Origin: Peptococcaceae bacterium UBA4068
GTDB lineage: Bacteria > Bacillota > Dehalobacteriia > UBA4068
Reading direction: 5' to 3'
NCBI GenBank assembly: GCA_002382665.1
Contig: DFZA01000006.1
Location: 66,950-130,949, forward strand
Length of the DNA stretch: 64,000 nt
Shown here: in pieces, positions 41,077 through 62,973 of the stretch
How positions within the stretch are numbered: position 1 is the first letter of the stretch
Layout of the letters: the number at the start of each line of letters is the position of its first letter
Notes under the pieces: generated by a model
Databases searched by the model: none
What the model saw: the letters and a program-made list of their open reading frames with translations, nothing else
What the model was told of the DNA's origin: nothing
Position numbers and translations under genes: made by a program

Positions 41077-41094
41077 CTCCTTTGCGTCACTCTG

Positions 41095-41291: not shown

Positions 41292-41399
41292 GGATAAGCG
41301 GCAAAAAATCAGCTAAAATATCTTTTGCGCATAATTTATTATATTTTGCCGGACATTATCTTATAAATATTATTTAATACTTGAACAACAACACGACTT

Positions 41400-43637: not shown

Positions 43638-43762
43638 GTTTTAAAAAAGAGACCTTCTTGGGGTAAATCCCAGGAAGGTCTTTTTATTATACTGCTCTTG
43701 CATTTTTCCAAAGAGCATGATATTTTTAAATTAACACATACAGAGGAGGATTTTGATAATAA

Positions 43763-44284: not shown

Positions 44285-45005
44285 GATAGGCATTATCGGC
44301 GGCAGCGGCCTCGACGACCCGAAAATTTTGATCAACCCCCAGGAAATTGATTTGGACACGCCTTACGGCAAAACCTCAGACAAATTGATCTGCGGCTCTA
44401 TCGGCAATACAGATGTAGTCATACTGGCCAGACATTCCAAGCAGCACAGCATTTCGCCGACCAAAGTGCCGTATCTGGCCAACATCTGGGCACTGAAAGA
44501 AGTAGGCTGCCAACAAATTTTCGCCACCACCGCCTGCGGTTCCCTACGGGCAGAAATGGCGCCGGGAGATTTGGTTTTTCTCGATCAGTTTATTGATCAT
44601 ACCAAATTAAGAAGATTATCTTTCTTTGAGGACGAAGTTGTCCATACGCCCATGGCCGAACCATTTGACTTTGGCCTGCGCCAAAAATTAGTAGCGGCAG
44701 CCAAAGATCTGGGTTTTAAATATCACGACAAAGGCACCATGATAACTATTGAAGGGCCGAGATTTTCCACCAAGGCGGAATCAAAAATGTTTCAATCATG
44801 GGGAGCTGATCTGATCAATATGTCGACAGTACCGGAAGTCTCCCTGGCCAACGAATTACAGATACCCTACCAGTCAATAGCCATGGTAACCGATTACGAC
44901 TGCTGGAAAGACGACGAGGAATCGGTCTCATTCGAATTAATCCTCAAGCGTATGAAAGACAACTCGGAAAAAGTAAAACAACTGCTGATAAAGATGGCAG
45001 AATAG
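44271..45005 (+). CDS. mtnP: S-methyl-5'-thioadenosine / purine nucleoside phosphorylase (PNP family 2)
   Basis: GIIGGSGL N-terminus, MSTVPEV and TDYD motifs of MTAP/PNP-II. Overlaps the apt stop. Confidence 0.7.
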
Positions 45006-45044
45006 GAGCGGCTCGAGGTTTATAATTCCTCTATGCTTCTATAT

Positions 45045-45077
45045 AAAAAGCTTGCAGGTTAATTCTGCAAGCTTTTT
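45045..45077. terminator. Bidirectional terminator (aaaaagcttgcag / ctgcaagcttttt) marking the left edge of the AT-rich island
   Basis: 12-bp perfect stem, A-run and T-run on opposite sides. Confidence 0.65.
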
Positions 45078-45115
45078 AAGTTGTGAATATTCAATGAGTT
45101 AGGTATTCTTTTTAT

Positions 45116-46900: not shown

Positions 46901-47098
46901 CTATATGATTTTTTTATTATAGGTATAAAATACTAATCTCAAACTCTTCTTGTCTTCTTTAAACTTCAAATTACATTCGCTACCTTATTCTTATATACAG
47001 AATAATACATTTTTCTACATAATGCAATTATTGTATTAAAAATAAGACAGCCCTGACTTATTATCAGAGCTGTCTTATAAGAACATACGATTCCTATC

Positions 47099-47617
47099 CT
47101 ACATACATTCATATGGATTGATTATCACCACATCCAACCCCTGTTTCCTTGCGTAATAGATAGTTTGGGCGGTGCCGCCGCTGGATGACAGATCGTGAAC
47201 AGCAATCAGACGCGACGAACTGTCTATCATTTTTTGGTTACGCCGCTGCATACAGCCGGTCGTATAATTCATCTGCAAACAAATTACCTCATCGGCTTTA
47301 GTCAGTATATTTATGTATTCTTCGCGCCAGTCTACCAACCATCTATCCGCCTGCGTTTCGCAAGGCAGATAACAAATCAGCCGGATATCAGGAAATTTCT
47401 CTTTCAGCTTTAAAATAATCTCCGCCGCCCAGATGTCCACACCCATGGCCATACCGGTTTGAAACGTCGTAAATCCTAGAAAGATACTTTTACGTATTTC
47501 ATATTCCAATTTGTTTAAGAGCAAAGCCAAATTTAATTCCATTGGCAATTTATGCGGACGCAAGCCACTGATCGTACATACTTTATCTTTTCCTGACATT
47601 TTATCTCCTTTTATCAT
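47099..47617 (-). CDS. SLOG-superfamily YpsA/DUF1273-family protein
   Basis: GMAMGVDIWAAE (cf. YpsA GxxLGvElWAAE) and the C-terminal SGGT motif of the DprA/LOG-like Rossmann fold. Confidence 0.7.
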   Translation of the reverse strand: MIKGDKMSGKDKVCTISGLRPHKLPMELNLALLLNKLEYEIRKSIFLGFTTFQTGMAMGVDIWAAEIILKLKEKFPDIRLICYLPCETQADRWLVDWREEYINILTKADEVICLQMNYTTGCMQRRNQKMIDSSSRLIAVHDLSSSGGTAQTIYYARKQGLDVVIINPYECM

Positions 47618-47695
47618 ATAACATGTATTATGTTAGATTATTATAACATATTATATAACCAGAAGGCAATATAAAATTGTCTTGAGGTGATCGTA

Positions 47696-47893
47696 ATGAG
47701 TAACAACCGCATTCCCATATCAAAAAAGGAACATGCAAAAGGAGAAGACGGGTATAAAACTTTCTCCATTCGTATAAAAGAAGAAACAGTCGCTGCGCTG
47801 GACGCTATAGCAAATAAAAGCAACCGCTCCAGAAACGAACTAATCAATATATTTTTGGACTATGGAGTTGAACACTGCGAAATCGTAGAGTAA
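47696..47893 (+). CDS. Ribbon-helix-helix (CopG/Arc/MetJ-like) DNA-binding protein
   Basis: KTFSIRIKEETVAALDAIANKSNRSRNELI, the β-strand-helix-helix pattern of RHH regulators and antitoxins. Confidence 0.6.
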   Translation: MSNNRIPISKKEHAKGEDGYKTFSIRIKEETVAALDAIANKSNRSRNELINIFLDYGVEHCEIVE

Positions 47894-47918
47894 TAACCCC
47901 ATTTAGTCGAGGTGCGCC
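47851..47918 (+). repeat. 68-bp direct repeat, copy 1 (3' end of RHH gene plus RBS region)
   Basis: About 94% identical to 48701-48768. Both copies end exactly at an ATG start codon. Confidence 0.9.
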
Positions 47919-48701
47919 ATGAAAAACAAAGTTATTTTATTTGTTATTGTTCTTTTATTAGTAATCTGTACATCGTCATATTTTTTTATTAGTAATAACA
48001 ATCAGACTAATAAAAAAACAGAGTCTACATCTACTGCCGAAATTTCCACTGCTACCACAATACCAAGTGTATCTAAAGAAACAGAAACAAAATACGAATG
48101 GGTTATTAAACCAAAACTTGATTATTCATTAATCGTTTTTGATCCATTTGCCCAAAACTATCAAGGAATAATAAATTATAAAGATGGAGAAAGTCATTAT
48201 GTAATCAGCAGCGAAACGGGAGAAGAAACTGGTGAATCTATTTTAGGCGATTCTATTGGCATTATGCCTTTCTGTGATCCACAACAAAATATTTTAGGTA
48301 CGCGTACTTATACTACTTGGGGTCAACAATTGTATGGTGAAGGAGATATTACTCAATTAGATTCTATTGCAGATATTGAAAGTGTTATTAAAACACACCA
48401 AAAGATAGCCACTCTAATTCCGTTACAAAAGGCCGATTTTTCTTCAGCAACTTCTTTCTCTAATAAATATGCTTTAGCAAACACTAATGATATTATCACA
48501 GATTTTATCTATGATGACGTTGACGGTTATTATAATACATCCACTTTTGCTGTTTGTAAAAACAACAAATGGGGATTCATCAATGATAAAGGCGAGCAAA
48601 TAATTGATTTTGTTTTTGATGGTGCAGTGAGTATTGAAACAGGAAAAGCATTCGTTAAGCAAAATGACAAGTGGGGAATTATTAAGATAACTATTGAATA
48701 A
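47919..48701 (+). CDS. WG-repeat (KWG motif) lipoprotein
   Basis: Signal peptide plus Cys. Repeated ...NKWGFINDKGEQ.../...NDKWGII... WG-containing repeats. Confidence 0.55.
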   Translation: MKNKVILFVIVLLLVICTSSYFFISNNNQTNKKTESTSTAEISTATTIPSVSKETETKYEWVIKPKLDYSLIVFDPFAQNYQGIINYKDGESHYVISSETGEETGESILGDSIGIMPFCDPQQNILGTRTYTTWGQQLYGEGDITQLDSIADIESVIKTHQKIATLIPLQKADFSSATSFSNKYALANTNDIITDFIYDDVDGYYNTSTFAVCKNNKWGFINDKGEQIIDFVFDGAVSIETGKAFVKQNDKWGIIKITIE

Positions 48702-48768
48702 TTTTTGGACTATGGAGTTGAACACTGCGAAATCGTAGAGTAATAACCCCATTTAATCGAGGTATACC
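48701..48768 (+). repeat. 68-bp direct repeat, copy 2 (precedes nim-like gene)
   Basis: See copy 1. Confidence 0.9.
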
Positions 48769-49257
48769 ATGAGGAGAAAAGACAGAGAAGTAACCAACCT
48801 TGACGAGATAAGAGACATCATTGAAAAATGTAAAGTCTGCCACCTTGCTATGGTGGATAACGGTATGCCCTATGTTATACCGCTTAATTTTGGTTATATA
48901 ATCGCAGATAATTTGCTGACTCTCTTTTTCCACAGCGCAAAAGAAGGGCGCAAAATCAATATATTAAAAGCTAACAATCAGGTTTGCTTTGAAATGACCT
49001 GCGAAGGTAAATCGCTTAATATAGAAAACCCCTGCAATTCAGGTTATTACTTCGAAAGCGTGCATGGATTCGGTCAGGTTGAATTCATTGAAGATGTCGA
49101 TGAAAAATGCCACGCGCTCACGCTTCTGGCAAAACATCAGTTAAATCAGGATTTCGTCTTCACAGAAAATCAGGCAAACAGCGTATGTGTGTTCAAGGTA
49201 GTATCCCAAGACTTTACCGGCAAAAAAAAGCCCGCGCCGGAGCATGATACCCAATAG
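48769..49257 (+). CDS. Pyridoxamine-5'-phosphate-oxidase-like, Nim (5-nitroimidazole reductase)-family protein
   Basis: N-terminal split-barrel pattern (CHLAMVDNGMPYVIPLNFGY...FHSAKEGRKI) as in NimA-type proteins, 162 aa. Confidence 0.65.
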   Translation: MRRKDREVTNLDEIRDIIEKCKVCHLAMVDNGMPYVIPLNFGYIIADNLLTLFFHSAKEGRKINILKANNQVCFEMTCEGKSLNIENPCNSGYYFESVHGFGQVEFIEDVDEKCHALTLLAKHQLNQDFVFTENQANSVCVFKVVSQDFTGKKKPAPEHDTQ

Positions 49258-49427
49258 GGTATCAGTGCCACTCGGTCAAAGCTATTTTGAAGAGCGATAC
49301 CCCAAATATAGTACAATAGAGCATGAATTTATAATAAGAATTGTTTTAGGAGTGGTTCTTATGAAAAATTGCATTGTAATAATGGGATAGTCAGCAAATT
49401 AACATCATACAAAGGAGAGTGTTAAAC

Positions 49428-50060
49428 ATGACTATTCCCAATAAAAATAAACTATACCCAAGAAGCAACGATCACCAAACCATATATCTTAAAAACGCAA
49501 TTACCAGAGATAACATAATAGTCGGAGATTACACAATATATAACGATTTTTATAATGACCTGCGGGACTTTGAAAAAAACAATGTCTTGTATCAGTATCC
49601 GCTGAACAATGATAAATTAATAATCGGTAAGTTTTGTTCGATCGCCTGTAAAGCGAAGTTTCTCATGACAAGCGGCAATCACACGCTCAAATCACTATCT
49701 ACTTACCCATTCCCTATCTTTTATGAGCAATGGGGGTTGGACGTTGGCCAAATCACAGACGCCTGGGATAATAAAGGAGATATTATAGTCGGCAACGATG
49801 TCTGGATAGGTTATGACGCTATTATTATGCCAGGCGTGAAAATTGGTGATGGCGCAATTATCGGCGCCAGAGCAGTCGTTACCCAAAACGTCCCTCCTTA
49901 CTCTATTGTCGGAGGCGTTCCCGCAAAAGTCATAAAGAATAGGTTTAGTGATGATATAATTTCAAAGTTATTGGAGATCAAGTGGTGGGATTGGCCGGAC
50001 GAAAAAATCCGGGCCAATATTCAACACCTCCAATCAGGAAATATTGCTGAATTAGTTTGA
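49428..50060 (+). CDS. vat: Xenobiotic acetyltransferase (XAT) hexapeptide family, Vat-like streptogramin A O-acetyltransferase
   Basis: [50 protein letters not shown] and KWWDWP align closely with Vat(D)-type enzymes (more so than with CatB). Confidence 0.75.
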
Positions 50061-50110
50061 TATTTACATTAGTTTTCCCGCATTAAATACCAATCTCTGC
50101 TTGAACTTAA

Positions 50111-50145
50111 AAAAAGATGCCGGTTTTAATAACCGGCATCTTTTA
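50111..50145. terminator. Bidirectional terminator (aagatgccggtt / aaccggcatctt) between vat and GT gene
   Basis: 12-bp perfect stem with flanking A and T runs. Confidence 0.7.
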
Positions 50146-51237
50146 AACTTCGTTTTCATTGGACTCTGAATTAACACTTTTAAAATAAAATTTATTATAC
50201 AGTACAGCCGGATGGTTTGGTTTATACTCGGCTGCCTTGTTATTATGCTTAATAGCTTGTTCTATGTTACCGATCCTGTCGTAACAGAAACATAGCTGCA
50301 TGTTGGGAATGTAATCCCAAAAATCATGCAGAATAAATCCCCAGTTATCAACAGGCTTTTTCAACTGGGTAGCCAGATTATACCAAAATATAGCTTTATC
50401 AAAGTCAGCCTTTTCTAAATAGTAGCTTCCCAGTTGACAACAGATTTCCGCTCGAGGCGTATCATATTCGAAGCTTTGCAATAATATTTTCAGTTTGCTT
50501 TTATTATTATTTAGATAACCATAGCATATTGAAAGATAAAAACAGGAACTGATATTATCTTCTGCCCATCCTTTTTCAGTATCTAAAAACTTATTGAAAT
50601 ATATGATCGCGTCATCGTACTTTTGATTGTAATACAGCTCTTTCGCATAATAGCAAAGCCCCCTTACGCTCAATTCTTTTCCTTTTGACAATAACTTTTC
50701 ATAGATTGATATGTTTCTGCCGCTTGGTGTTTGATGTTCTTTTTTATGAGTTATACATATATCTGAGTTAATAATATATCCTCCGGTTTGTATATACTCA
50801 TGGATAGGTTCCAACCATTTGTAGTTATTTGCCCTCTTAACCAAACGTTCTCTGTAATATGATAAAGTAATATTGCCGTTTTCATCAAAACCGGCATTAT
50901 ATTTCATCATCACCATATCAACATTATCATTTAAATCTTGTTTTAGCTGCTTTAATTTGATTCTGTCTTCTTCCAGGATAACATCGTCCGCGTCCAACCA
51001 AAGAATATAATCCTTTGTCGCTTGGGAAAATGAGTAATTTCTCGCGGCTGAAAAATCGTCAATCCATTCGAAATCATATAGTTTATCAGTATATTCTTTA
51101 ACAATATTCTTTGTGTTATCTGTAGATCCGGTATCCACAATAATTATTTCATCAGCAATATCCTTAACACATTCCAGGCACCTTGATAAAACGTCTTCTT
51201 CATCCTTCACAATCATACAAAGACTAATTGTTATCAT
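50143..51237 (-). CDS. GT2 (GT-A fold) glycosyltransferase with C-terminal TPR-like helical domain
   Basis: IVKDEEDVL...IIIVDTGSTDNT...WLDADDV (DxD) N-terminal domain. C-terminal TPR-like repeats. Architecture shared with spore-coat/exosporium and SunS-type glycosyltransferases. Confidence 0.7.
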   Translation of the reverse strand: MITISLCMIVKDEEDVLSRCLECVKDIADEIIIVDTGSTDNTKNIVKEYTDKLYDFEWIDDFSAARNYSFSQATKDYILWLDADDVILEEDRIKLKQLKQDLNDNVDMVMMKYNAGFDENGNITLSYYRERLVKRANNYKWLEPIHEYIQTGGYIINSDICITHKKEHQTPSGRNISIYEKLLSKGKELSVRGLCYYAKELYYNQKYDDAIIYFNKFLDTEKGWAEDNISSCFYLSICYGYLNNNKSKLKILLQSFEYDTPRAEICCQLGSYYLEKADFDKAIFWYNLATQLKKPVDNWGFILHDFWDYIPNMQLCFCYDRIGNIEQAIKHNNKAAEYKPNHPAVLYNKFYFKSVNSESNENEV

Positions 51238-51356
51238 TTAACACCTCCGTTTATGCCGATCCCTTTATTAAAAGAGGGAAATATAAAATGTCCCCCTCTT
51301 TCAATAAATATTAAAGTAGATTATTTGCTATATCTTACTAATTGAGGTATTTGTTA

Positions 51357-52064
51357 TTATGTAATACGTAGTAATATCGTAGCTGCCGCGCCATTCTCTA
51401 AGGCAGCGGAAGTGGTGCTACGGGTAACTTTTACAGATAACAAATCACATCGATTAACAGTAAAATTTGCACTTGTAAATGCACAACAAGTTGGCGGATT
51501 TGGCCCTGTTACCACTGCTTTAATGCCTGTTGCTACAGGAGTAACCCCACAATTTGTGCTTCGATATATCTCACCAGTGATGGTTTCGCCTGTATCTAAA
51601 GGTTCGTCTCGAATACTAAAGACTAAACCTGTAATGGTTGAGGTTTGCGGGACGACAACAGTATTGCGCGGAAAACTTGATGACGAAATACCTAGTCCCA
51701 TAAAATCATTATTGCCAATAGATGTATCCGAACCTAAATAAATAGTACTTGCTCCAGGTCCCGTTGCGCCCGTTGCCCCAGTAGCACCTGTAGCGCCCGT
51801 TGCTCCTGTTGCGCCGGTAGGTATGGTTATACAGATACACTCGCAGCATTCACAACATTTCGGACAGCGACAAGGTTCAGTTTCACAGCATGAGTGGTCT
51901 TTATGACAATGACGATTGTTATCTTCACGACAATGGCAATCTTCATCTTCACAACAGAAAAACTCTAAACAATGTTGACAAAAACATAATTTAATATTTC
52001 GGTGTTTTTTTTCTATTTGATGATCCTGAAAATAGTCAGTCTCACCAAAGGTCCTTTTAGGCAT
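51357..52064 (-). CDS. Collagen-like (GAT)n repeat protein with Cys/His-rich N-terminal domain and BclA-C-terminal-like domain (putative spore-surface glycoprotein)
   Basis: 19 Cys in residues 27-79. (GAT)6-GPGAS triple-helix-type repeat encoded by a perfect 9-bp DNA repeat. About 125-aa β-rich C-terminal domain. Confidence 0.6.
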   Translation of the reverse strand: MPKRTFGETDYFQDHQIEKKHRNIKLCFCQHCLEFFCCEDEDCHCREDNNRHCHKDHSCCETEPCRCPKCCECCECICITIPTGATGATGATGATGATGATGPGASTIYLGSDTSIGNNDFMGLGISSSSFPRNTVVVPQTSTITGLVFSIRDEPLDTGETITGEIYRSTNCGVTPVATGIKAVVTGPNPPTCCAFTSANFTVNRCDLLSVKVTRSTTSAALENGAAATILLRIT

Positions 52065-52473
52065 TTTTCAATCCTCCCTACATAGTGTTATAGCCTGACT
52101 AACCTATAACATTATATGAGGAGTATAATAGCATAGTTCCATTACCAAGCCCTTAATTAATTGCTTATAAAGAGAGAGCCGATTATTGATTCAATAATTG
52201 GGGCGTGTTCTGTTTTATGTGTTTTAATGCCCTAGTGGTTATAATAAAAGCAAGGAATGCCCTCAAGGCTCGGATATTTCGGGTTTGAGGGCATTTTTAT
52301 TTAAGTAACTAATTGACTTTGTGTACTGTAGCGGAAGAAAATATAAAATTGCGCAGAATTACGATGTGTCCGTTCAATACTTTTTCCCACTGGTTTGTTG
52401 TCGAATTATCCCGCTTATTCTATCAGCAGCAAATGCGATTATACGGTATTCCGCACCTCCCCTTCTCAACTAT

Positions 52474-52507
52474 AAAACCCTCTGTATGGTATACAGAGGG
52501 TTTTATA
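52474..52507. terminator. Perfect palindromic terminator (aaaaccctctgtat-gg-atacagagggtttt) 3' of the GGDEF/HD-GYP gene
   Basis: 14-bp perfect stem, 2-nt loop, U-runs on both strands. Confidence 0.75.
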
Positions 52508-52559
52508 GTTGATTTTACTTCTACGTTTACTAAATACAATCTATTGTTTATGATTTACA

Positions 52560-54245
52560 TCAAACAACTTTTGAATTTTTTCCTAAATTATTTGGATTTT
52601 GTAATAGATTTATAAAAGTATCCACTATTTTAGGATCAAATTGGGAGTTACTGCAGCGTTTAAGTTCTTCAATGGCTTCTCCAAATGATCTTCCTGTCTT
52701 ATATGGTCTATCCGTTGTCATGGCATCAAAACAATCTACTACAGTTAATATTCTGGCAAGATAAGGTATATCATCTCCCGAAAGACCATCGGGATAGCCG
52801 TTACCGTCATATCTCTCGTGATGATGTTTAATAAGGGGTATAACATCACTAATAGATTCTACAGGCCCGATTATTTCAGCACCTTTTACCGGATGCTGTT
52901 TTAGTATTTCCCATTCCTCCGACTCCAGAGTAATATCTTTATTAAGTATTGTCTTAGGAATATCAATTTTGCCAATATCGTGCAGATATGCGGCATATAT
53001 AAGCTTTTTCTTTTCGTCCTCAGCCAAATTTAACTCTTCGGCCATCATTTGACAATTCATAACTACTCTTTCCGTATGAGCGTATGTATATCTGTCTTTC
53101 ACATTAATAACCATTATCAAGGTTTTTATTGATGTGATCAATTTCGTATCTTCATCTTCAACATTGCTTTTTAGTTCGTCAAAAATAGATGTATAGGTTT
53201 CTACCCGATTTCTGTTAAAGATTTTGGCTCTATATAAAGCATCGTCGGCATTCTTTACCAACTGATCTGCAGATTTTACTCTTTCAGGAAATGACGAGAC
53301 CCCGATTGATATAGTTAGGTTACCATTGGGCTGCAGTTGCTGATTTTCAAAGTAGGTTTGTTCGATCTTTTGCCGGATTCGTTCTCCGATTTTTACCGCG
53401 TAATCTTCGCCCGTTTCCGGCAGTATGATAACAAACTCCTCCCCGCCATATCGCACAGCCACATCATCTTTTCTGGTTTGCTCTTTCAAAATATCGGCTA
53501 TAGTCTTTAATACTTGATCTCCTTTTTGGTGTCCGTTAAGATCATTATAATTCTTAAAATAATCAATATCTAAAAAAATCAAGGATAGGGGTTGCTTGTT
53601 TTCTACAGCCTGTTCAGTTTTTAATTTTAACATTTTACTGAAATATCTATGATTGTATAAACCGGTAAGATTATCAGTATTGATACCGTATTCCAGTTGC
53701 TCTATATATTGATCATTTACCTTAACAAAGTATCCCAGCGTCCAGGAAACCAAGAAAAATATCCCTATCAGGACCAAATCGTCTTCAAAATAAGGATTTA
53801 TACTTTGATGGGTATAAGTCAATATGTCCAAGGATACTATAACAACAGATGAAGCTAGAGATATCAGTAATCCATTCCTCATGCCCATCTGAATGGTAGA
53901 AGATATAATAACAAGCAAAAACAGAAATTTATATATACTTTCGGCCGCTCCGGAAATATAAATTACAAAAGTGAAAAGTAAAACAAAAAATAGATTTTCC
54001 CCCAGCAAGAACCATCTGTTTTTAACAAACTTTGCACTTTTATTTTCCCATAGATCCCAGAGGAAATAAGTGCAAAGCAGAACAATACACCCAACAGCCC
54101 CTGTAATTAATAGAGTGGTTTGGTAGGGATCATTTTCGGTGTTAATAATTTTATACTTATAAATAATAAAACCAGCAAAGAGTAAAAAACATAATTTTAT
54201 AATAGAAAGTATATTGTTTATCTCTTTTTTATTATCATTATCCAT
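52560..54245 (-). CDS. Membrane-anchored bifunctional c-di-GMP protein: N-terminal about 6-TM sensor-like domain, then GGDEF, then HD-GYP
   Basis: RYGGEEF (intact GGEEF). HD...HHERYDGNGYP (intact HD-GYP). About 175-aa N-terminal polytopic region. Confidence 0.8.
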   Translation of the reverse strand: MDNDNKKEINNILSIIKLCFLLFAGFIIYKYKIINTENDPYQTTLLITGAVGCIVLLCTYFLWDLWENKSAKFVKNRWFLLGENLFFVLLFTFVIYISGAAESIYKFLFLLVIISSTIQMGMRNGLLISLASSVVIVSLDILTYTHQSINPYFEDDLVLIGIFFLVSWTLGYFVKVNDQYIEQLEYGINTDNLTGLYNHRYFSKMLKLKTEQAVENKQPLSLIFLDIDYFKNYNDLNGHQKGDQVLKTIADILKEQTRKDDVAVRYGGEEFVIILPETGEDYAVKIGERIRQKIEQTYFENQQLQPNGNLTISIGVSSFPERVKSADQLVKNADDALYRAKIFNRNRVETYTSIFDELKSNVEDEDTKLITSIKTLIMVINVKDRYTYAHTERVVMNCQMMAEELNLAEDEKKKLIYAAYLHDIGKIDIPKTILNKDITLESEEWEILKQHPVKGAEIIGPVESISDVIPLIKHHHERYDGNGYPDGLSGDDIPYLARILTVVDCFDAMTTDRPYKTGRSFGEAIEELKRCSNSQFDPKIVDTFINLLQNPNNLGKNSKVV

Positions 54246-54326
54246 ATAGTTTATTAAACTCCGTAACCTGCCTACTATATAAGACCGGCCAATTTGGTCG
54301 GTCTTATATAGTATTTTTTTGTTATT

Positions 54327-54449
54327 TTAGTCTCTAAGGCATTTGGGTTCTTCCGGTTGATAGGCTGCAAACAGGCATGCTGAACTAGCAAATACGGAAG
54401 CGAGCAGTGTTGCTAAAACAGAAGTGAGTACCAACAGTTTGAATTTCAT
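54327..54449 (-). CDS. agrD: AgrD-like autoinducing-peptide precursor (40 aa; not in supplied ORF track)
   Basis: Hand translation gives MKFKLLVLTSVLATLLASVFASSACLFAAYQPEEPKCLRD. AGGAGG SD 8 nt upstream. Sits 26 nt downstream of agrB. Amphipathic leader, central Cys, and a charged tail with P-x-x-P-K, as in S. aureus AgrD ...CDFIMDEVEVPKEL. Confidence 0.6.
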   Translation of the reverse strand: MKFKLLVLTSVLATLLASVFASSACLFAAYQPEEPKCLRD

Positions 54450-54475
54450 TTGATTCACCTCCTTCTAACTTAAAT

Positions 54476-55108
54476 TTAATTATGGAGATCCATCATTGCG
54501 AATAAGCGACCTCCTGAGTGCGTTAAAGTTAGGGTCTGCCAGACCGTGCCAAAGAGTATACAAGCGGCATAGCGGATCAAATGTCCGTTATCTCCGGCAA
54601 AACTATGCAAAGATAGCAAGACGACTATGACCAATAGATATATTCCTAAAATTACCAAAGAGCCGTTCCGCAACCGTTTTCTTTTTCGTGCATTTGTGAT
54701 CGGTTTTTTAATACTGTCCACCGGGGCTTTGGTCAGTACTTCGTAAAACGCCCAGGCGAATGCTGCAATCCCCAAAATGATAACCCATATAACGTTTACG
54801 GGAATATGAGTGATAACAATAGCCGGAACAACAGAGATCACGGTACCTATAACAAGACACTTTCCGGGGGTAGCGGCATGAGCCCCGCCGGAATACTTCC
54901 GCAAAATAGCGATAGTAAAACAGATAACCAATGCTTGTCCAAGCACATGGAATAATAAACTAAAAAGGATAACCAGCAGTATAGATGCTAATATCTGGGA
55001 AAAACAAAAGATACCGTAGGCCATTACTGCTTTTTTATCCTCATCCATATGTAGCGAATAGGCAATATTGGCAGCAATCTTTTCCGCAATCGTCTCCAAA
55101 CTAAACAT
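54476..55108 (-). CDS. agrB: Accessory gene regulator protein B (AgrD-processing membrane peptidase)
   Basis: LRKYSGGAHAAT (AgrB R-x-x-SGG-HA catalytic region). Polytopic. K/R-rich cytoplasmic loop. 210 aa. Confidence 0.8.
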   Translation of the reverse strand: MFSLETIAEKIAANIAYSLHMDEDKKAVMAYGIFCFSQILASILLVILFSLLFHVLGQALVICFTIAILRKYSGGAHAATPGKCLVIGTVISVVPAIVITHIPVNVIWVIILGIAAFAWAFYEVLTKAPVDSIKKPITNARKRKRLRNGSLVILGIYLLVIVVLLSLHSFAGDNGHLIRYAACILFGTVWQTLTLTHSGGRLFAMMDLHN

Positions 55109-55571
55109 TTTTTTCTCTTTTCCTGATTACCAGCAAATAATATAAGAAAATTGTTATTATTGCTAAAGAGATCAAAGAGGGCAAGCTATATAGAGTTTTG
55201 ACATAAACATCCGTATACATCTTTGTTAAATCTAGATGAAGTATGTACTGTATAAATAACATGTTAATCAATTCACAAACGTATAACAATATTAAAGTAA
55301 TAATGCTGGAGCGGATACTGACCGTCAAATTGATCTTATTGATAAAATAAGAAATCCCAATAAGAACAATAACATTAATGATGGTGTGGATACCGTAACT
55401 GATTGGCAGCTCTCTTATAGCAAAAACTAAAACCGCATATAATAGGCTTGATAATATATATCTTTTTACGTCTACTTTTTGTTTGGAAAGAGCATATACC
55501 AAAAGTAAAGTAAAAAATTCTTCCGGTATTACACGAGCGAAAAATTCAAACCAAGTAAGATGAAGCAACAA
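55101..55571 (-). CDS. Small polytopic membrane protein, translationally coupled to agrB
   Basis: 156 aa, 4-5 TM. Its stop overlaps the agrB start by 8 nt. Confidence 0.4.
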   Translation of the reverse strand: MLLHLTWFEFFARVIPEEFFTLLLVYALSKQKVDVKRYILSSLLYAVLVFAIRELPISYGIHTIINVIVLIGISYFINKINLTVSIRSSIITLILLYVCELINMLFIQYILHLDLTKMYTDVYVKTLYSLPSLISLAIITIFLYYLLVIRKREKNV

Positions 55572-55581
55572 AATTCCTCCT

Positions 55582-56130
55582 TTATGCCATTTTTTGATCC
55601 TGATTTAGGTATTTTACGGTATTATAAATTATAATAATCACAAATAACCTGATAAAGATATCGCCGATACTAAGAACCGAATAACCAATATCAAAAATAT
55701 CTGTCAAAAAAGGCAGATGAGTCGATGCATTGCCCCAAATATGTAATGTATCATTGGCGGGAAATGGTTGATTAAGCACATAACCGGTCATTAATGTATT
55801 AGACGGAAACACAGGCATTTTGCCTCCGTTTGCCCAAATTGCGATTTGATTACAAATACTGCCAACAACGATGCAGGCTACTGCAAATAACGAGCTTTTA
55901 TAAAGCTTGCACTTAATAATTAATAAAAGATAGGAAGATAAATATACAGCCTTTAAGATTTGCACATATTTTATCAGGCTATAATCATGCATAAAAAAGT
56001 TAATTTGAAATACCAGATAAATAATTTCAAAACCAAGTATTACATAAAATTGCCATATGGTAAAAATTTTTTTTATTTGATAACCTTTTAATTTAGCAAT
56101 AATCAATGCTAAAACAATCGATTCAGGCAT
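55582..56130 (-). CDS. Conserved polytopic membrane protein (ANGGKMPV / SIGDI motifs), first gene of the agr-like operon
   Basis: 182 aa, 5-6 TM. Motifs IWANGGKMPVFP and DIGYSVLSIGDIF. Function unknown. Confidence 0.4.
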   Translation of the reverse strand: MPESIVLALIIAKLKGYQIKKIFTIWQFYVILGFEIIYLVFQINFFMHDYSLIKYVQILKAVYLSSYLLLIIKCKLYKSSLFAVACIVVGSICNQIAIWANGGKMPVFPSNTLMTGYVLNQPFPANDTLHIWGNASTHLPFLTDIFDIGYSVLSIGDIFIRLFVIIIIYNTVKYLNQDQKMA

Positions 56131-56142
56131 ACATTTTATTTT

Positions 56143-56174
56143 CCTATTTTCCTATTTTCCTATTTTCCTATTTT
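56143..56174. repeat. Tandem octamer (CCTATTTT) x4 with degenerate copies on both sides (56135-56190)
   Basis: Four perfect copies read directly. On the coding (-) strand they read AGGAAAAT x4-5, ending 12 nt before the ATG of the 55582..56130 gene. Confidence 0.9.
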
Positions 56175-56486
56175 CCATAATTTTCCATTTAAATACATTA
56201 TATCATGTTTATAGTTGAAATAAATACTTTCAGGGATAAAAATTGTAGAAATCTAATAAATTATAAATTTAAATTTCTAAATAAGTCTTAATATTACAAT
56301 TCATTCTTATCAGCAGTATGTTTAAGTTAATAATTAATTAGAGAATACGCCAACATTTGCCCTCAATGGCCGGAAATTCAGGCTTCGAGTGCTGCTTGAC
56401 ATTATGTGCCGTGATATGAGATACAAAATAAAATGATATAGACAAAATTATTAGTTTTAACTGCCGCATATATTGTTAGTGGGTAG

Positions 56487-57908
56487 GTGGTTTTTATGTT
56501 TACTCATGTTGTCAAAGCGGGCGAAACGCTAACGCAAATAGCAACCTTTTATCATGTACCGATGACGCCGATCATCACTGCCAACGGGCTGGTTGACCCC
56601 GATGTGCTGGTCGTCGGAGAAGCGCTGGTCATCCCCACCGAAGACGTCATCTATATCGTCAAGCCTGGCGATACATTGACCAAAATCGCGCAAAATTACG
56701 GCGTGTCCGTCCAGTACATATTGCAAAACAACAGCATTGCCAATCCTAACAACATTTATCCCGGCCAGGCAATCTATATCCCAGCGAAACAACATCGCGT
56801 AGTACGGGGAGATACGCTGTGGGCGATTTCGCGGCGCTACAGGGTTACACTTCAGAGCCTGATACAAGTAAATAACATTACCAATCCGAACATTATCAGC
56901 CCGGGCACAGTGCTTGTTATCCCGCATAAAAACAGACCGGAAAAAAGCGTCAATGGGTATATTTATTTTCTCGGACAGTCTGCCGTGCCGATCGTCAGCG
57001 AGAATGGCGGATATCTGACCTATCTCAGTCCGTTTGCCTACATGATCAAGGAGGATGCGAGCCTGCAGCCAATCGACGACGTACCCGCTATTCAAACCGC
57101 CCAGGCCGAAGGAGCCATCCCGATGATGTCCATTACTAATTTTACCGTGGGCTTCAGAGGCGAGAATCTGGCTTCGGTCGTATTAAACAGTCCTGCGCTG
57201 ATCGATCAGCTTCTGACGAACATTATTAGCATCATGCAGCAAAAAGGATATAGGGGTTTAAATGTTGACTTTGAGAATGTGCTGCCAAAAGATCGCGAGG
57301 CTTATAACAGTTTTTTGCACCAAGCCGCCACACGGATGCACGCCAACGGCTATTTTTTGTCCACCGCCCTTGCACCAAAGACCGGTCCGACGCAGGCTGG
57401 ACTCTTGTACGAAGCGCATGATTATCCGGCACACGGCAGGATTGCCGATTTTGTGATTTTGATGACCTATGAATGGGGTTTCCGCAAAGGCCCGCCGCAG
57501 GCAATTTCACCGCTCGACAAAATTCGGGAAGTACTTGATTACGCCGTTACGGTCATCCCGAGAAATAAAATCTATTTTGGTTTTCAGATTTATGCGCGTG
57601 ACTGGACCATCCCCTTTTATCAAGGAGAGGAAGCCACGACGATTAGCCCTCAGGAGGCTGTGACGCGGGCTGCTAGGTTTGGCGCGGTGATTCAGTACGA
57701 CTACATCGCAGAGGCTCCCTTTTTTGTGTACACAGATGATACAGGACAGGCGCACGAAGTGTGGTTTGAAGATGCGCGCAGCGCACAGGCCAAGTTAAAC
57801 ACCATTAGGGATTATAATTTGGGTGGCATCAGTTACTGGGCGCTGGGTTATCCTTTCCCGCAAAACTGGGTTCTCCTCGAAGATAATTTCATGGTAAGGA
57901 AATTATAA
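56487..57908 (+). CDS. Spore cortex-fragment-lytic enzyme-like protein: 3 LysM domains + GH18 (YaaH/SleL-like)
   Basis: Three LysM repeats (VKAGETLTQIA.., VKPGDTLTKIA.., VRGDTLWAIS..) followed by a GH18 TIM-barrel with the DFE catalytic-type motif. An alternative ATG start exists at 56496. Confidence 0.75.
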   Translation: MVFMFTHVVKAGETLTQIATFYHVPMTPIITANGLVDPDVLVVGEALVIPTEDVIYIVKPGDTLTKIAQNYGVSVQYILQNNSIANPNNIYPGQAIYIPAKQHRVVRGDTLWAISRRYRVTLQSLIQVNNITNPNIISPGTVLVIPHKNRPEKSVNGYIYFLGQSAVPIVSENGGYLTYLSPFAYMIKEDASLQPIDDVPAIQTAQAEGAIPMMSITNFTVGFRGENLASVVLNSPALIDQLLTNIISIMQQKGYRGLNVDFENVLPKDREAYNSFLHQAATRMHANGYFLSTALAPKTGPTQAGLLYEAHDYPAHGRIADFVILMTYEWGFRKGPPQAISPLDKIREVLDYAVTVIPRNKIYFGFQIYARDWTIPFYQGEEATTISPQEAVTRAARFGAVIQYDYIAEAPFFVYTDDTGQAHEVWFEDARSAQAKLNTIRDYNLGGISYWALGYPFPQNWVLLEDNFMVRKL

Positions 57909-60530: not shown

Positions 60531-60693
60531 ATATTACTCCCCTAATTATTTACTGATAGCAGAATCAAAAACTCCTGGATATTAACAGGAGTTTTTAATT
60601 TGACAATTTTTTTAATAAAGTTTGCGCACCATTATTTATTTATGTATAATTTAATAAAAGAATTAATTTCCATTTATTTTGGAGGTGGGCAAT

Positions 60694-62973
60694 ATGGAAA
60701 TAAATGAAATGACCAAAGAACAATTGATTAATCATATTGACACTCTTAATACGCAAATATCATTATTGGGAAATACCAAATTGACAGATAGAAAAACAGA
60801 TATGAGTTTTTTGGCTGATGATAAGTCCGGATTGTTGTTTAACAACTTATCGGTTGGTCTTATCATTACCGATCCCGACGGTTCTATTATTAATTTTAAT
60901 AGAACCATACAGGATTTATTAGGTTATTCACTAGAAGATTGTAAAAACAAGAATGTCACCGATTTATATTTCGATCCGCGCGAACGTCAACAGCTTTTGG
61001 ACACGCTTGCCAATTCAAAAGTAGCCCATGACTATGAGATGGTACTAAAACATAAAGATGGAACGCTAAGGACCGTATTGGCAAATATCGACTACATTGA
61101 AATGAATGATAAACCTATGCTGCTGGCCTCAGTATTCGATATTACCCAATATGAGTTAATACAGGAGAATATCAGAGAGTCGGAAAGAAATTTCCGAACT
61201 CTTTTTAGTCATGCGCCGATTGGCATTACCGTATCAGATTTTCAGGGTAATTTAATTGCCAGCAATCATGCTCTGCAGGAATTATTAGGCTACAACGCAG
61301 ATGAACTAAAAAACAAAAATATGTTGGACTTTTATTATGACAAAATGGGCAGACAAAAACTGTTAAGCTTATCAAGGGAACTCGGTATTGTACGCGACTT
61401 AGAGACCAGATACAAACATAAAGACGGCAGCCCTATTCCGGTATTAATCAACACCGATTTGATAGATTTTAAAGATAAAAAAGATGTATTGCTTACATCA
61501 ATACGTGATATTTCTAATCTTAAAAAGATTGAAGATGAATTAGCAAGAGAACGCGATTTTTCTAACGCCATACTTGATATTACAGCATCTCTGATTTTGG
61601 TTATTGATCGCAAAGGAATAATAACTAAGTTTAATCGGACTTGTGAAAAGACCTCAGGCTATAAGGCTGAAGAGATGTGCGGTAAATATTTTGTAGATGC
61701 AAAAATAATCGACCCTACTATTAACGAAGAAATGGTAGAGATATTGCTCAGGGGCGAATATCCCATAGAACATGATAATGTTTGGATTTCCAAAAACGGC
61801 ATCAAACACCTTATTTCTTGGACGGATACAGCGCTTTTTGATGACAATGGACAAATAGATTATATCATAGCAACCGGCATTGATATAACCAAACGGCAAA
61901 AGGCGGAAAATGAGCTGCAAAAAGCAAATCAAGAATTAGCTTCCTGGGTTAAAGAACTCGAAGAAAGAAACGAAGAAATGAATAAACTAAATGAAATGGG
62001 CGAGCATCTTCATAATTGCCGGACAATTACTGAGGCCTGCGCTATCAGCGCCCAATTTATTCAACAGATTTGTTCTGGTAGCCATGGAGCGCTATATCTG
62101 ATAAATTCATCAAAAAATTACGCCGAAGCTGTTGAAACGTGGGGTGAGCCCACCAATACTATGGAGATTTTTAATCCCTTGGGCTGCTGGTCGATACGCC
62201 GTGGTCGTCAGCATATGGTTGATAGCAGTCACCCGGGACTGCGTTGCGAACATATTACCGGACCAACATCCGGTCACTACCTTTGTGTGCCTTTACTGGT
62301 AAACGGCGAAGCCATCGGCATACTTCATATAAATCACACTAATGAGACACAACAAGATCCCCAACAAAAATCTATGTGTATACCGGATAACGAACACAAA
62401 ATACAGTTTATTAAAACAATAGCGGAACAAATTTCTCTGGCATTATCAAACCTAAAATTACAGGAAACACTTCGCCAACAATCTATCCGTGATGCTCTTA
62501 CCGGCTTATATAACAGACGTTTTATGGAGGAGACATTGGAAAGGGAATTAAAACGGGCAGAACGGGAGAAAAAATCCGTCGGAGTAATTATGCTTGATAT
62601 TGACCACTTTAAAGAATTTAATGATCTCACAGGTCATGACGGCGGCGATGCGTTGTTACGTGAGTTAGGAGTATTTCTAAAAAGTAAAAACCGCGCAGGG
62701 GATATTGCCTGCCGGTATGGCGGTGAGGAGTTTATTATCGTATTACCGGGCATTACTAAAGAAGATGCTCAAAACAGAGCCGATGAACTGCGCCAGGGAG
62801 TAAAAGAACTACTGGTATACCACCTCGGAAAACCACTAGGCAAATGCACTATCTCGCTTGGCGTCGCAGTTTTCCCCGAAAATGGACATACAATCGATTC
62901 GTTGCTCAAAGCTGTCGATAATGCCCTTTATCAGGCAAAGAATCAAGGAAGAGACAGGGTAGTGATAGCCTAA
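60694..62973 (+). CDS. Cytoplasmic PAS-PAS-PAS-GAF-GGDEF diguanylate cyclase
   Basis: Three PAS-like segments, coiled-coil, GAF-like region, and C-terminal RYGGEEF with the inhibitory-site RxxD (RAGD). Start at the ATG after a GGAGGTG SD. Confidence 0.8.
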   Translation: MEINEMTKEQLINHIDTLNTQISLLGNTKLTDRKTDMSFLADDKSGLLFNNLSVGLIITDPDGSIINFNRTIQDLLGYSLEDCKNKNVTDLYFDPRERQQLLDTLANSKVAHDYEMVLKHKDGTLRTVLANIDYIEMNDKPMLLASVFDITQYELIQENIRESERNFRTLFSHAPIGITVSDFQGNLIASNHALQELLGYNADELKNKNMLDFYYDKMGRQKLLSLSRELGIVRDLETRYKHKDGSPIPVLINTDLIDFKDKKDVLLTSIRDISNLKKIEDELARERDFSNAILDITASLILVIDRKGIITKFNRTCEKTSGYKAEEMCGKYFVDAKIIDPTINEEMVEILLRGEYPIEHDNVWISKNGIKHLISWTDTALFDDNGQIDYIIATGIDITKRQKAENELQKANQELASWVKELEERNEEMNKLNEMGEHLHNCRTITEACAISAQFIQQICSGSHGALYLINSSKNYAEAVETWGEPTNTMEIFNPLGCWSIRRGRQHMVDSSHPGLRCEHITGPTSGHYLCVPLLVNGEAIGILHINHTNETQQDPQQKSMCIPDNEHKIQFIKTIAEQISLALSNLKLQETLRQQSIRDALTGLYNRRFMEETLERELKRAEREKKSVGVIMLDIDHFKEFNDLTGHDGGDALLRELGVFLKSKNRAGDIACRYGGEEFIIVLPGITKEDAQNRADELRQGVKELLVYHLGKPLGKCTISLGVAVFPENGHTIDSLLKAVDNALYQAKNQGRDRVVIA

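What the first reader, a model, noticed from the sequence alone, without database searches (positions are those of the whole stretch)
54327..54449. Unannotated 40-aa AgrD-like peptide precursor downstream of agrB
The supplied ORF track has a 60-aa floor and misses this gene. On the minus strand an AGGAGG SD is followed 8 nt later by an ATG opening a 40-codon ORF: MKFKLLVLTSVLATLLASVFASSACLFAAYQPEEPKCLRD. Its architecture is that of AgrD. It has an amphipathic N-terminal leader. It has a central Cys positioned to form a 5-residue thiolactone ring (CLFAA) with a short SSA tail. It has a C-terminal charged recognition tail Y-Q-P-E-E-P-K, which aligns with the S. aureus AgrD D-E-V-E-V-P-K. It lies 26 nt after agrB (54476..55108), which carries the diagnostic R-x-x-SGG-HA motif. 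The predicted autoinducer (about SSA-c[CLFAA]) would be a new AIP sequence.
Basis: partly seen in the sequence, partly recalled or inferred. Interest (0 to 1): 0.75.

Follow-up and report, generated by a model that had tools for sequence, protein, structure and literature searches.

The report
Real agrD gene in c-di-GMP-linked cassette
The 40-codon gene is a genuine but ordinary member of the known AgrD family of quorum-sensing peptide precursors; the more interesting point is that in this lineage it is almost always followed by a membrane enzyme that makes and breaks cyclic-di-GMP, and that enzyme may be the peptide's receptor.

Summary
A 40-codon ORF at 54327..54449 (minus strand) has a GGAGG 8 nt before its ATG and starts 26 nt after agrB. 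It matches NCBIfam TIGR04223 (AgrD) at 44.2 bits against a cutoff of 19. The upstream gene matches Pfam AgrB (E 1.5e-38) and keeps His77 and Cys84.

It is not new as a gene. The exact peptide is already a called gene in NCBI, JGI, ENA and Logan data, and more than 1,100 relatives exist, many named "cyclic lactone autoinducer peptide". It belongs to the clostridial clade with invariant ASSAC-xxxx-YQPEEP and a hypervariable ring. The predicted ring is c[CLFAA]. The SSA tail is a guess, since the C. perfringens relative is tailless.

There is no AgrC/AgrA in any kinase- or regulator-sized ORF scanned in the window. Instead the gene sits in a conserved five-gene cassette: DUF5317, a 155-aa membrane protein, AgrB, AgrD, then a 6-TM GGDEF + HD-GYP protein. 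That last gene follows agrD in 53 of 54 assessable metagenome loci.

In close relatives with different rings, its membrane domain diverges while its catalytic domains stay 89-98% identical. This resembles the S. aureus agr specificity groups. The protein is therefore a candidate AIP receptor; this is inferred, not shown.

The parts
54327..54449 (-). agrD: 40-aa precursor of a cyclic (thio)lactone autoinducing peptide. Leader is residues 1-24, predicted ring C25-L-F-A-A29, and C-terminal recognition tail Y30-QPEEPKCLRD.
   Evidence: TIGR04223 44.2 bits against cutoff 19. The exact product is in public gene calls. Family alignment is invariant at ASSAC/YQPEEP. Synonymous changes outnumber non-synonymous ones.
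54458..54463 (-). Shine-Dalgarno AGGAGG, 8 nt upstream of the agrD ATG.
   Evidence: Read directly from the sequence.
54476..55108 (-). agrB: membrane cysteine endopeptidase/cyclase that processes AgrD. Carries His77 and Cys84.
   Evidence: Pfam PF04647 E 1.5e-38, full length. The H77/C84 motif RKYSGGAHAATPGKC is conserved in relatives.
55101..55571 (-). 155/156-aa membrane protein of an unnamed family with five predicted TM helices. Its stop overlaps the agrB start by 8 nt. It is the most divergent gene of the cassette between strains with different rings.
55582..56130 (-). DUF5317 membrane protein, first gene of the cassette.
   Evidence: Pfam PF17248 E 5.2e-21. Present upstream in 33 of 34 assessable loci.
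56131..56215 (-). Probable promoter (TGATATAAT) and 5' leader of the cassette, containing a (GGAAAATA) x6.6 tandem repeat at 56137..56190.
   Evidence: Sequence; TRF score 83. The repeat is absent from all related loci except the identical contig. Promoter function is inferred from the consensus only.
54273..54313 (.). Strong hairpin between agrD and the next gene. A U-tract follows it only on the + strand.
   Evidence: Terminator scan. RNA fold -25.7 kcal/mol, z = -6.07. C. estertheticum has a canonical bidirectional terminator at the same place.
52560..54245 (-). 561-aa membrane protein: about 6 TM helices (residues 1-180), a GGDEF domain (GGEEF at 267, RKDD I-site at 258) and an HD-GYP domain (HD at 422, GYP at 483). 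Candidate AIP receptor and c-di-GMP output.
   Evidence: Pfam GGDEF E 7e-48 and HD_5 E 5.5e-41. Motifs. Synteny 53/54. Its TM domain diversifies together with the ring. The sensor domain is shared with histidine kinases.
52466..52512 (.). 20-bp-stem hairpin just downstream of the GGDEF/HD-GYP gene; likely end of the locus.
   Evidence: Terminator scan. It coincides with a sub-threshold Rfam His_leader hit that I regard as spurious.

Best explanation
The ORF is a real agrD gene of the clostridial (C. perfringens-like) clade. It lies in a tightly packed operon: DUF5317, a 155-aa membrane protein, agrB, then agrD.

Expected mechanism, by homology:
1. The hydrophobic leader (residues 1-24) anchors AgrD at the membrane.
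2. AgrB (His77/Cys84) removes the C-terminal YQPEEPKCLRD and joins the Ala29 carbonyl to the Cys25 thiol. This gives a five-residue thiolactone, c[CLFAA].
3. A second, unidentified protease removes the leader. This leaves either no tail, as in C. perfringens, or a short tail taken from the invariant ASSA.
4. The peptide is released and acts as a density signal.

No AgrC/AgrA or VirS/VirR pair is encoded in any kinase- or regulator-sized ORF scanned in the window. The most likely sensor (my estimate about 0.5) is the protein encoded immediately downstream. It has a 6-TM domain fused to GGDEF and HD-GYP domains that both look catalytically intact, so the peptide signal would be converted directly into a change in c-di-GMP.

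Shown here: gene reality, family membership of AgrD and AgrB, the catalytic motifs, conservation of the cassette, and co-diversification of the ring with AgrB, the small protein and the sensor TM domain.

Inferred: peptide chemistry, tail length, the roles of DUF5317 and the small protein, and the receptor assignment.

The confidence given (0.88) refers to the AgrD/AgrB identification and the cassette description, not to the receptor assignment.
For: AgrD and AgrB identity:
- TIGR04223 scores 44.2 bits against a cutoff of 19.
- AgrB Pfam E 1.5e-38, with H77/C84 in the same positions as the S. aureus AgrB catalytic pair (S. aureus sequence and residue roles from memory).
- The family alignment is invariant at ASSAC and YQPEEP, with a hypervariable four-residue ring segment.
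- The C. perfringens signal is [CLWFT], and the precursor continues with H (PMC12312760, PMC7300355).

Operon:
- There is an 8-nt overlap between the small gene and agrB, and gaps of 10-26 nt elsewhere.
- The same four-gene order is co-transcribed in C. perfringens (PMC2706048).

Absence of a two-component system:
- No histidine kinase or response regulator was found in any suitably sized ORF of the 64-kb window, nor among the genes called in the flank.

Cassette conservation:
- The cassette is present in 11 fetched genomic contexts.
- Among 65 distinct metagenome peptides, 53 of 54 have the GGDEF/HD-GYP gene downstream, and 23 of 24 have all five genes.

Receptor inference:
- In 17 disjoint close pairs, same-ring pairs (n=7) have TM-domain identity equal to catalytic-domain identity (difference -2 to +2 points).
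- Different-ring pairs (n=10) lose on average 17 points, range 0-30 (Mann-Whitney p = 0.0006).
- L019 and L045 have about 100% identical flanks over 3 kb on each side. A 52-88% identity island runs from the 3' end of DUF5317 into the first ~290 nt of the sensor gene.
- Variation peaks in residues 30-97. Residues 1-29, which lie nearest agrD, stay conserved, so this is not simple linkage decay.
- GGEEF, HD and HHExxDGxGYP are 94-100% conserved in 55 proteins.
- The same TM domain occurs fused to HisKA+HATPase_c kinases, so it is a modular input domain.
- Such paralogous kinase-type genes (TM+PAS; the kinase core is confirmed only in L012, the other three are truncated by the contig end) sit next to the cassette in L012, L044, L061 and L073.
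Against: - Nothing here shows transcription, translation or the chemical structure of the peptide.
- A strong hairpin separates agrD from the GGDEF/HD-GYP gene. A canonical terminator does so in C. estertheticum. The putative receptor is therefore probably a separate transcription unit.
- The GGDEF/HD-GYP gene is cleanly deleted in one C. estertheticum strain (L018). It is also absent in a Cellulosilyticaceae genome (L010) and in L031, so it is dispensable for keeping agrBD.
- One different-ring pair (L091/L009) shows no extra TM divergence.
- The TM domain has no detectable similarity to the AgrC sensor.
- In C. perfringens the proposed receptor is the VirS/VirR system, encoded elsewhere (PMC7300355).
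- Same-ring pairs are on average more closely related than different-ring pairs, so the contrast is not perfectly controlled. The window/L004 pair (89% against 88%) is the only distant same-ring control.
Confidence: 0.88

Rival explanations
1. The gene is a true agrD, but the peptide is sensed by a histidine kinase encoded elsewhere in the genome. This could be a VirS/VirR-like system as proposed for C. perfringens, or one of the kinases carrying the paralogous 6-TM domain. On this view the adjacent GGDEF/HD-GYP protein is only a co-located gene, perhaps co-regulated, and its 5' end is dragged along with the hypervariable agr block by recombination.
For: - C. perfringens is a precedent: orphan agrBD with VirS/VirR proposed as the sensor (PMC7300355).
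- There is a hairpin or terminator between agrD and the GGDEF gene.
- The GGDEF gene is lost in L018, L010 and L031 while agrBD is kept.
- The L091/L009 pair has different rings but an unchanged TM domain.
- Kinases with the same sensor domain exist.
Against: - Synteny of 53/54 across very different flanking contexts is hard to explain without a functional tie.
- Divergence inside the sensor gene skips the first 29 codons and peaks at residues 30-97. It stops at or before the TM/catalytic boundary in independent pairs.
- No kinase or regulator was found in the ORFs scanned across the 64 kb.
Confidence: 0.35
2. The TM-GGDEF-HD-GYP protein does interact with the agr machinery, but not as a receptor of the mature extracellular peptide. 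It might sense the membrane-embedded AgrD leader or the AgrB/small-protein complex inside the membrane, much as PilS senses pilin. It would then report signal production rather than cell density.
For: - The TM domain has weak but repeated similarity to the PilS-like 6-TM domain (5 of 9 members, best E 3.9e-6).
- It co-diversifies with AgrB and the small protein as well as with the ring.
- Much of the variable segment lies in predicted TM2, TM3 and a cytoplasmic loop, not only in outside loops.
Against: - The PilS-like matches are below or near Pfam's cutoff.
- The topology comes from a simple hydropathy scan only.
- The most variable block is the predicted first outside loop.
Confidence: 0.12
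3. The small ORF is a chance ORF or a non-signalling leader-like peptide, and the AgrD resemblance is superficial.
For: It is only 40 codons long. No Pfam family matched above threshold. There are no expression data.
Against: - TIGR04223 scores more than twice its cutoff.
- It has a perfect SD and spacing.
- It is adjacent to a full-length AgrB.
- More than 1,100 homologues show invariant processing motifs.
- Codon differences show an excess of synonymous change.
- Four independent pipelines call the gene.
Confidence: 0.01

Closest known systems
Clostridium perfringens Agr-like system (CPE1563-CPE1562-agrB-agrD; signal c[CLWFT])
   Same: - Two membrane-protein genes lie upstream of agrB and agrD in one operon (PMC2706048).
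- There is no AgrC/AgrA in the locus.
- The precursor has the same architecture: ...SAC + 4 residues + (H/Y)QPEEP.
- A five-residue thiolactone ring is predicted at the same register (PMC12312760, PMC7300355).
   Different: - The ring sequence differs (CLFAA, not CLWFT), and the residue after the ring is Y rather than H.
- The host is an uncultured Peptococcaceae-like Clostridia member. The closest genome is UBA5752, with AgrB 87% identical.
- I could not check whether CPE1563 and CPE1562 are DUF5317 and the small-protein family, or whether the C. perfringens downstream gene CPE1560 is the GGDEF/HD-GYP orthologue.
- The published receptor candidate there is VirS/VirR, not a c-di-GMP enzyme.
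Staphylococcus aureus agrBDCA
   Same: - AgrB has the His77/Cys84 pair at identical positions.
- AgrD has a leader, a five-residue ring and an acidic proline-containing tail, with the conserved Pro six residues after the ring.
- There is an allelic hypervariable block spanning the processing enzyme, the peptide and the N-terminal membrane domain of the next gene. This is the pattern that defines the S. aureus agr specificity groups (PMC12312760).
   Different: - AgrC (HPK10 kinase), AgrA (LytTR) and RNAIII are absent.
- The gene in the AgrC position encodes a 6-TM GGDEF + HD-GYP protein with no detectable similarity to the AgrC sensor.
- Two extra membrane proteins are encoded upstream.
- The Pfam staphylococcal-type AgrD model does not match.
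Orphan agrBD loci of other clostridia (C. difficile agr1, C. botulinum agrB1D1/agrB2D2)
   Same: These are agrB + agrD without a cognate two-component system in the locus, and the receptor is unknown or debated (PMC12312760 table; PMC10602386).
   Different: Their precursor tails and rings differ (for example ANST[CPWII]). I found no evidence that they share the five-gene cassette described here; this was not tested.
Rpf/DSF quorum sensing of Xanthomonas (RpfC kinase to RpfG HD-GYP)
   Same: A diffusible density signal is converted into c-di-GMP turnover through an HD-GYP domain (from my own knowledge, not tested here).
   Different: - The signal there is a fatty acid.
- It is sensed by a hybrid kinase that phosphorylates a separate REC-HD-GYP protein.
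- Here the predicted sensor and both c-di-GMP domains are in one polypeptide, and the signal is a cyclic peptide.

Membership tests
AgrD (NCBIfam TIGR04223, cyclic lactone autoinducer peptide) | Score above the curated family cutoff. | tested here: met
   44.2 bits against cutoff 19, E 1.5e-11, model positions 2-37 of 38.
AgrD (NCBIfam TIGR04223, cyclic lactone autoinducer peptide) | 40-50 aa precursor with a hydrophobic or amphipathic N-terminal leader, a central Cys/Ser opening a five-residue ring, and a charged proline-containing C-terminal tail. | tested here: met
   40 aa. Hydrophobic segment at residues 3-21. C25 plus LFAA, then YQPEEPKCLRD. The register is fixed by invariant flanks in 19 and 65 homologues.
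AgrD (NCBIfam TIGR04223, cyclic lactone autoinducer peptide) | Encoded next to an agrB gene. | tested here: met
   26 nt downstream of a full-length AgrB.
AgrD (NCBIfam TIGR04223, cyclic lactone autoinducer peptide) | Processed to a secreted cyclic thiolactone with signalling activity. | not testable with these tools
   Needs LC-MS and bioassay. Predicted [M+H]+ is 506.2432 (tailless) to 751.3443 (SSA tail).
AgrB (Pfam PF04647) | Full-length profile match and the catalytic His/Cys pair. | tested here: met
   E 1.5e-38, profile positions 1-185 of 185. His77 and Cys84 are present. The NCBIfam staphylococcal equivalog NF002210 is not reached (57.7 bits against 282), so it is an AgrB-family protein, not the staphylococcal orthologue.
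Canonical agrBDCA quorum-sensing locus | AgrC-type histidine kinase and AgrA LytTR regulator encoded with agrBD. | tested here: not met
   No HATPase, HisKA, response-regulator or LytTR domain was found in any suitably sized ORF of the window or in the called genes of the flank. A few ORFs under 350 aa were not scanned.
C. perfringens-type Agr-like operon | Two membrane-protein genes co-transcribed upstream of agrB-agrD, with no two-component system in the locus. | tested here: inconclusive
   The gene order and tight spacing match. Co-transcription is not testable here.
GGDEF diguanylate cyclase / HD-GYP phosphodiesterase (downstream protein) | Profile matches and intact catalytic motifs (GG[DE]EF; HD...HHExxDGxGYP). 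| tested here: met
   PF00990 E 7e-48 and PF13487 E 5.5e-41. GGEEF at 267, HD at 422, GYP at 483. These motifs are 94-100% conserved in 55 orthologues. Enzyme activity is not testable here.
AgrC-like AIP sensor domain (downstream protein, residues 1-180) | Sequence similarity to the AgrC membrane sensor. | tested here: not met
The only weak similarity is to the PilS-like 6-TM domain. This lowers the claim 'it is an AgrC', not the claim 'it may work like one'.

The most novel reading that the evidence does not exclude
In this large clade of clostridial agr systems (AgrD with ASSAC-xxxx-YQPEEP), the missing receptor may be the 6-TM GGDEF + HD-GYP protein encoded directly after agrD. The cyclic peptide would then be read out directly as a change in c-di-GMP, without a two-component system.

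Paralogous copies of the same sensor domain on orphan HisKA kinases could carry the same signal to phosphorelays such as sporulation. The small 5-TM protein, which is the most allele-specific gene, would be a new specificity-determining component of peptide maturation or export.

I found no description of this in the paper library searched. That library is incomplete, so prior description cannot be excluded.
Probability: 0.4. Interest if true: 0.75.

Novelty: new member of a known kind. Interest (0 to 1): 0.4.

Why it matters
As a gene, this is one more AgrD with one more ring sequence. It is useful for annotation and for showing that a 60-aa ORF floor hides signalling genes, but it is not surprising.

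The context matters more. Many clostridia carry agrBD without a cognate AgrC/AgrA, and how their peptide is sensed remains open or debated. Here the same membrane c-di-GMP enzyme follows agrD in almost every locus of the clade. Its sensor domain changes together with the peptide ring, while its catalytic domains do not.

This gives a concrete, cheaply testable receptor candidate. It also suggests a direct route from peptide quorum sensing to c-di-GMP-controlled behaviour such as motility, biofilm and pili.

Tried and rejected
- Pfam scan of the 40-aa peptide gave only sub-threshold DUF hits and no AgrD model match. NCBIfam was needed.
- A GTG start at 54458 (43 aa) was rejected. It overlaps the SD, is not in any public call and is not supported by homologues.
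- The first test of a hypervariable sensor domain, on distant relatives, was uninformative because TM domains always diverge faster. It became informative only with close pairs.
- DUF5317 had no PDB sequence hit. The single-sequence AF2 model was unusable at pLDDT 51. My idea that its conserved SIGD and D-x-x-D motifs mark an intramembrane aspartyl protease therefore remains untested.
- The sensor TM domain had no PDB hit and no similarity to AgrC.
- The AlphaFold-database fold library was unavailable.
- Rfam found no riboswitch or known RNA in 51-58 kb, only two sub-threshold chance-like hits.
- Ohtani et al. 2009 was not held in the library.
- Literature searches for an agrBD-GGDEF/HD-GYP link or for DUF5317 returned nothing relevant.

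Full report
**1. The observation**

On the minus strand, AGGAGG (54463..54458) is followed after 8 nt by an ATG at 54449. This opens a 40-codon ORF that ends with TAA at 54327.

The ORF starts 26 nt after the stop of a 210-aa ORF (54476..55108). An alternative GTG start three codons upstream lies inside the SD. No public gene call uses it, and the homologue alignment does not support it.

**2. Is it AgrD?**

Yes. The peptide scores 44.2 bits (E 1.5e-11) against NCBIfam TIGR04223 "AgrD family cyclic lactone autoinducer peptide". The curated cutoff is 19, and the match covers model positions 2-37 of 38. Pfam gave no AgrD match.

The upstream protein matches Pfam AgrB end to end (E 1.5e-38). It carries RKYSGGAHAATPGKC, with His77 and Cys84 at the positions of the S. 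aureus AgrB catalytic pair. The S. aureus sequence and the roles of those residues are from my memory.

The ORF is conserved as a coding sequence. Against three relatives, 14-18 codons differ synonymously and 6-9 non-synonymously, and the latter are enriched in the ring. It is the only AgrD-like small ORF in the window.

**3. It is not new as a gene**

The exact 40-aa sequence is already a called gene on contigs in NCBI, JGI/IMG, ENA and Logan. A single-sequence search found 19 relatives. A profile search found more than 1,148, capped by the candidate limit. Many of these are named "cyclic lactone autoinducer peptide" by NCBI or "AgrD protein" by JGI.

The closest genome is the MAG "Peptococcaceae bacterium UBA5752" in class Clostridia. 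Its AgrB is 87% identical, and its AgrD differs only by K36E, with the same ring.

**4. Which AgrD, and what peptide?**

In the clade alignment, A-S-S-A-C and Y-Q-P-E-E-P are invariant, and the four residues after the Cys are hypervariable. Among 65 distinct peptides from metagenomes there are 60 different rings.

The best-studied relative is C. perfringens. Its signal is reported as a tailless five-residue thiolactone [CLWFT], and a six-residue analogue CLWFTH shows that H follows the ring in the precursor (PMC12312760; PMC7300355).

By register, the ring here is C25-L-F-A-A29. AgrB is expected to release YQPEEPKCLRD. Predicted masses are given.

**5. The surroundings**

The four genes DUF5317 (55582..56130), a 155-aa membrane protein (55101..55571), agrB and agrD are packed tightly. 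The gaps are 10-26 nt, and the small gene overlaps agrB by 8 nt.

This is the same order as the co-transcribed C. perfringens operon CPE1563-CPE1562-agrB-agrD (PMC2706048).

A strong hairpin follows agrD (-25.7 kcal/mol, z = -6.07). Next comes a 561-aa protein (52560..54245) with:
- about six TM helices;
- a GGDEF domain (GGEEF at 267, RKDD I-site);
- an HD-GYP domain (HD at 422, GYP at 483).

No histidine kinase or response regulator was found in any suitably sized ORF of the window or in the called genes of the flank.

**6. The cassette is conserved**

The five-gene arrangement recurs in unrelated flanking contexts. Examples are C. lacusfryxellense, two C. estertheticum strains and several MAGs.

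A metagenome scan with the AgrD profile returned 80 loci. After collapsing to 65 distinct peptides:
- 53 of 54 loci with enough downstream sequence carry the TM-GGDEF-HD-GYP gene directly after agrD;
- 33 of 34 with enough upstream sequence carry AgrB, the small protein and DUF5317;
- 23 of 24 with both sides assessable carry all five genes.

The exceptions lack the GGDEF/HD-GYP gene:
- L031;
- a Cellulosilyticaceae genome;
- one C. estertheticum strain, where the gene is cleanly deleted between the agrD terminator and the downstream intergenic sequence.

**7. Allelic specificity-group pattern**

In C. estertheticum strains the flanking proteins are 95-100% identical. Inside the cassette the identities are:

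| Gene or domain | Identity |
|---|---|
| DUF5317 | 86-89% |
| Small protein | 68-77% |
| AgrB segments | 73-94% |
| Sensor TM domain | 89% |
| Cytoplasmic domains | 97% |

Much clearer cases came from the metagenome loci. L019 (ring CIWSH) and L045 (ring CFWAH) are about 100% identical in DNA for roughly 3 kb on each side. Between those flanks lies an island of 52-88% identity. It runs from the 3' end of the DUF5317 gene through the small gene, agrB and agrD, and into the first ~290 nt of the sensor gene. At protein level the identities are catalytic region 98%, TM 77%, AgrB 66% and small protein 58%.

I then took 17 disjoint pairs whose catalytic regions are at least 80% identical:
- The seven same-ring pairs have TM identity equal to catalytic identity (difference -2 to +2 points). 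This includes the window against UBA5752, at 89% and 88%.
- The ten different-ring pairs lose 17 points on average (range 0 to 30). The one-sided Mann-Whitney p is 0.0006.

Within the TM domain the differences concentrate in residues 30-97. By hydropathy these are the first outside loop, TM2, an inside loop and TM3. Residues 1-29, physically nearest to agrD, are conserved. This argues against simple decay of a recombination tract.

The pattern resembles the S. aureus agr hypervariable region (AgrB, AgrD, AgrC sensor). Here, however, a c-di-GMP enzyme stands in the position of AgrC.

**8. The sensor domain is a modular input domain**

An exhaustive search of 1.84 billion representatives with residues 1-185 found only 126 clusters. 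Full-length hits fall into three architectures:
- about 555-575 aa: TM + GGDEF + HD-GYP;
- 415-493 aa: TM + HisKA + HATPase_c;
- about 616 aa: TM + PAS + HisKA + HATPase_c.

In L012 a complete TM + PAS + HisKA + HATPase_c kinase sits directly upstream of the cassette, with a TM domain 41% identical. In L044, L061 and L073 a paralogous TM + PAS gene lies just downstream (45-47% identical), but it is cut by the contig end before any kinase domains could be seen.

GGEEF, HD and HHExxDGxGYP are 94-100% conserved in 55 cassette proteins, so both enzymatic domains are under selection.

The domain shows only weak similarity to the PilS-like 6-TM domain and none to the AgrC sensor.

**9. What stays unknown**

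The small protein has five predicted TM helices (AF2 pLDDT 90). It has 509 stand-alone "hypothetical" homologues. It occurs in two copies in UBA5752 and three in L016. It is the most allele-specific gene, which suggests contact with the variable part of AgrD. Possibilities are leader removal, export or co-reception. No homology or fold match supports any of these.

DUF5317 is equally uncharacterised.

**10. Verdict**

The part worth following up is the cassette. Genomic linkage and ring-linked diversification nominate the TM-GGDEF-HD-GYP protein as the cognate sensor. I put this at about 0.5. The main rival is a kinase encoded elsewhere, as proposed for C. perfringens.

I found no report of this link in the searchable library. 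That library is incomplete.

Noticed in passing
window 56137..56190: An 8-nt tandem repeat (GGAAAATA, about 6.6 copies, TRF score 83) fills the 5' leader immediately upstream of the ATG of the DUF5317 gene, after a TGATATAAT -10-like box. It is present in the identical ENA contig but in none of the related cassette loci, including the 87-90% identical UBA5752. The GGA-rich repeat could affect translation or bind a CsrA-like regulator.
   Followed up: partly
L019 vs L045 (also L058/L082, L023/L088, L086/L091): Within what look like single species (flanks about 100% identical), the agr cassette exists as sharply different alleles with different rings. This is a natural set of specificity groups comparable to S. 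aureus agr groups I-IV.
   Followed up: yes
L018 6135..6260 (C. estertheticum GCA_019537135.1): The TM-GGDEF-HD-GYP gene is cleanly absent between the agrD terminator and the conserved downstream intergenic sequence, while agrBD and both upstream genes are intact. This is a natural knockout of the candidate receptor.
   Followed up: partly
L004 4937..6005; L016 5737..7339: The small 5-TM protein gene is duplicated in tandem (two copies in UBA5752, three in L016), while agrB and agrD stay single-copy.
   Followed up: no
L007 2263..4029: An extra MASE9-like + HD-GYP protein followed by a second DUF5317 gene sits just upstream of the cassette. This suggests that DUF5317 may be functionally tied to HD-GYP proteins rather than to AgrB.
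   Followed up: no
L012 2144..4000; L044 8028..; L061 8058..; L073 3774..: Genes with a paralogous copy (41-47% identical) of the cassette's 6-TM sensor domain, followed by a PAS domain, lie next to the cassette. In L012 the protein is a complete TM-PAS-HisKA-HATPase_c histidine kinase; the other three are truncated by the contig end. This architecture resembles orphan sporulation kinases of clostridia (the resemblance is from memory and was not tested).
   Followed up: partly
window 51357..52064 (-): A 235-aa ORF with a Cys/His/Glu-rich N-terminal part (CCECCECIC...) and a (GAT)x7 collagen-like run. It has no family match above threshold, and it is conserved next to the cassette in three contigs of the same organism.
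   Followed up: no
window 40000..56500: A stretch of about 16 kb with lower G+C (31-38%) than the rest of the window (about 42% and up to 50% in the adjacent LysM/GH18 gene). The agr cassette lies at its edge, so it may have been acquired horizontally.
   Followed up: no
window 60679..62973 (+): A second c-di-GMP protein (three PAS domains, GAF, GGDEF; 764 aa) lies 4.5 kb from the cassette.
   Followed up: no
window 52466..52512: A perfect 20-bp-stem hairpin lies downstream of the GGDEF/HD-GYP gene, with a T-run on the + strand only. It overlaps a sub-threshold Rfam His_leader hit (37.1 bits against 49) that is probably spurious.
   Followed up: no
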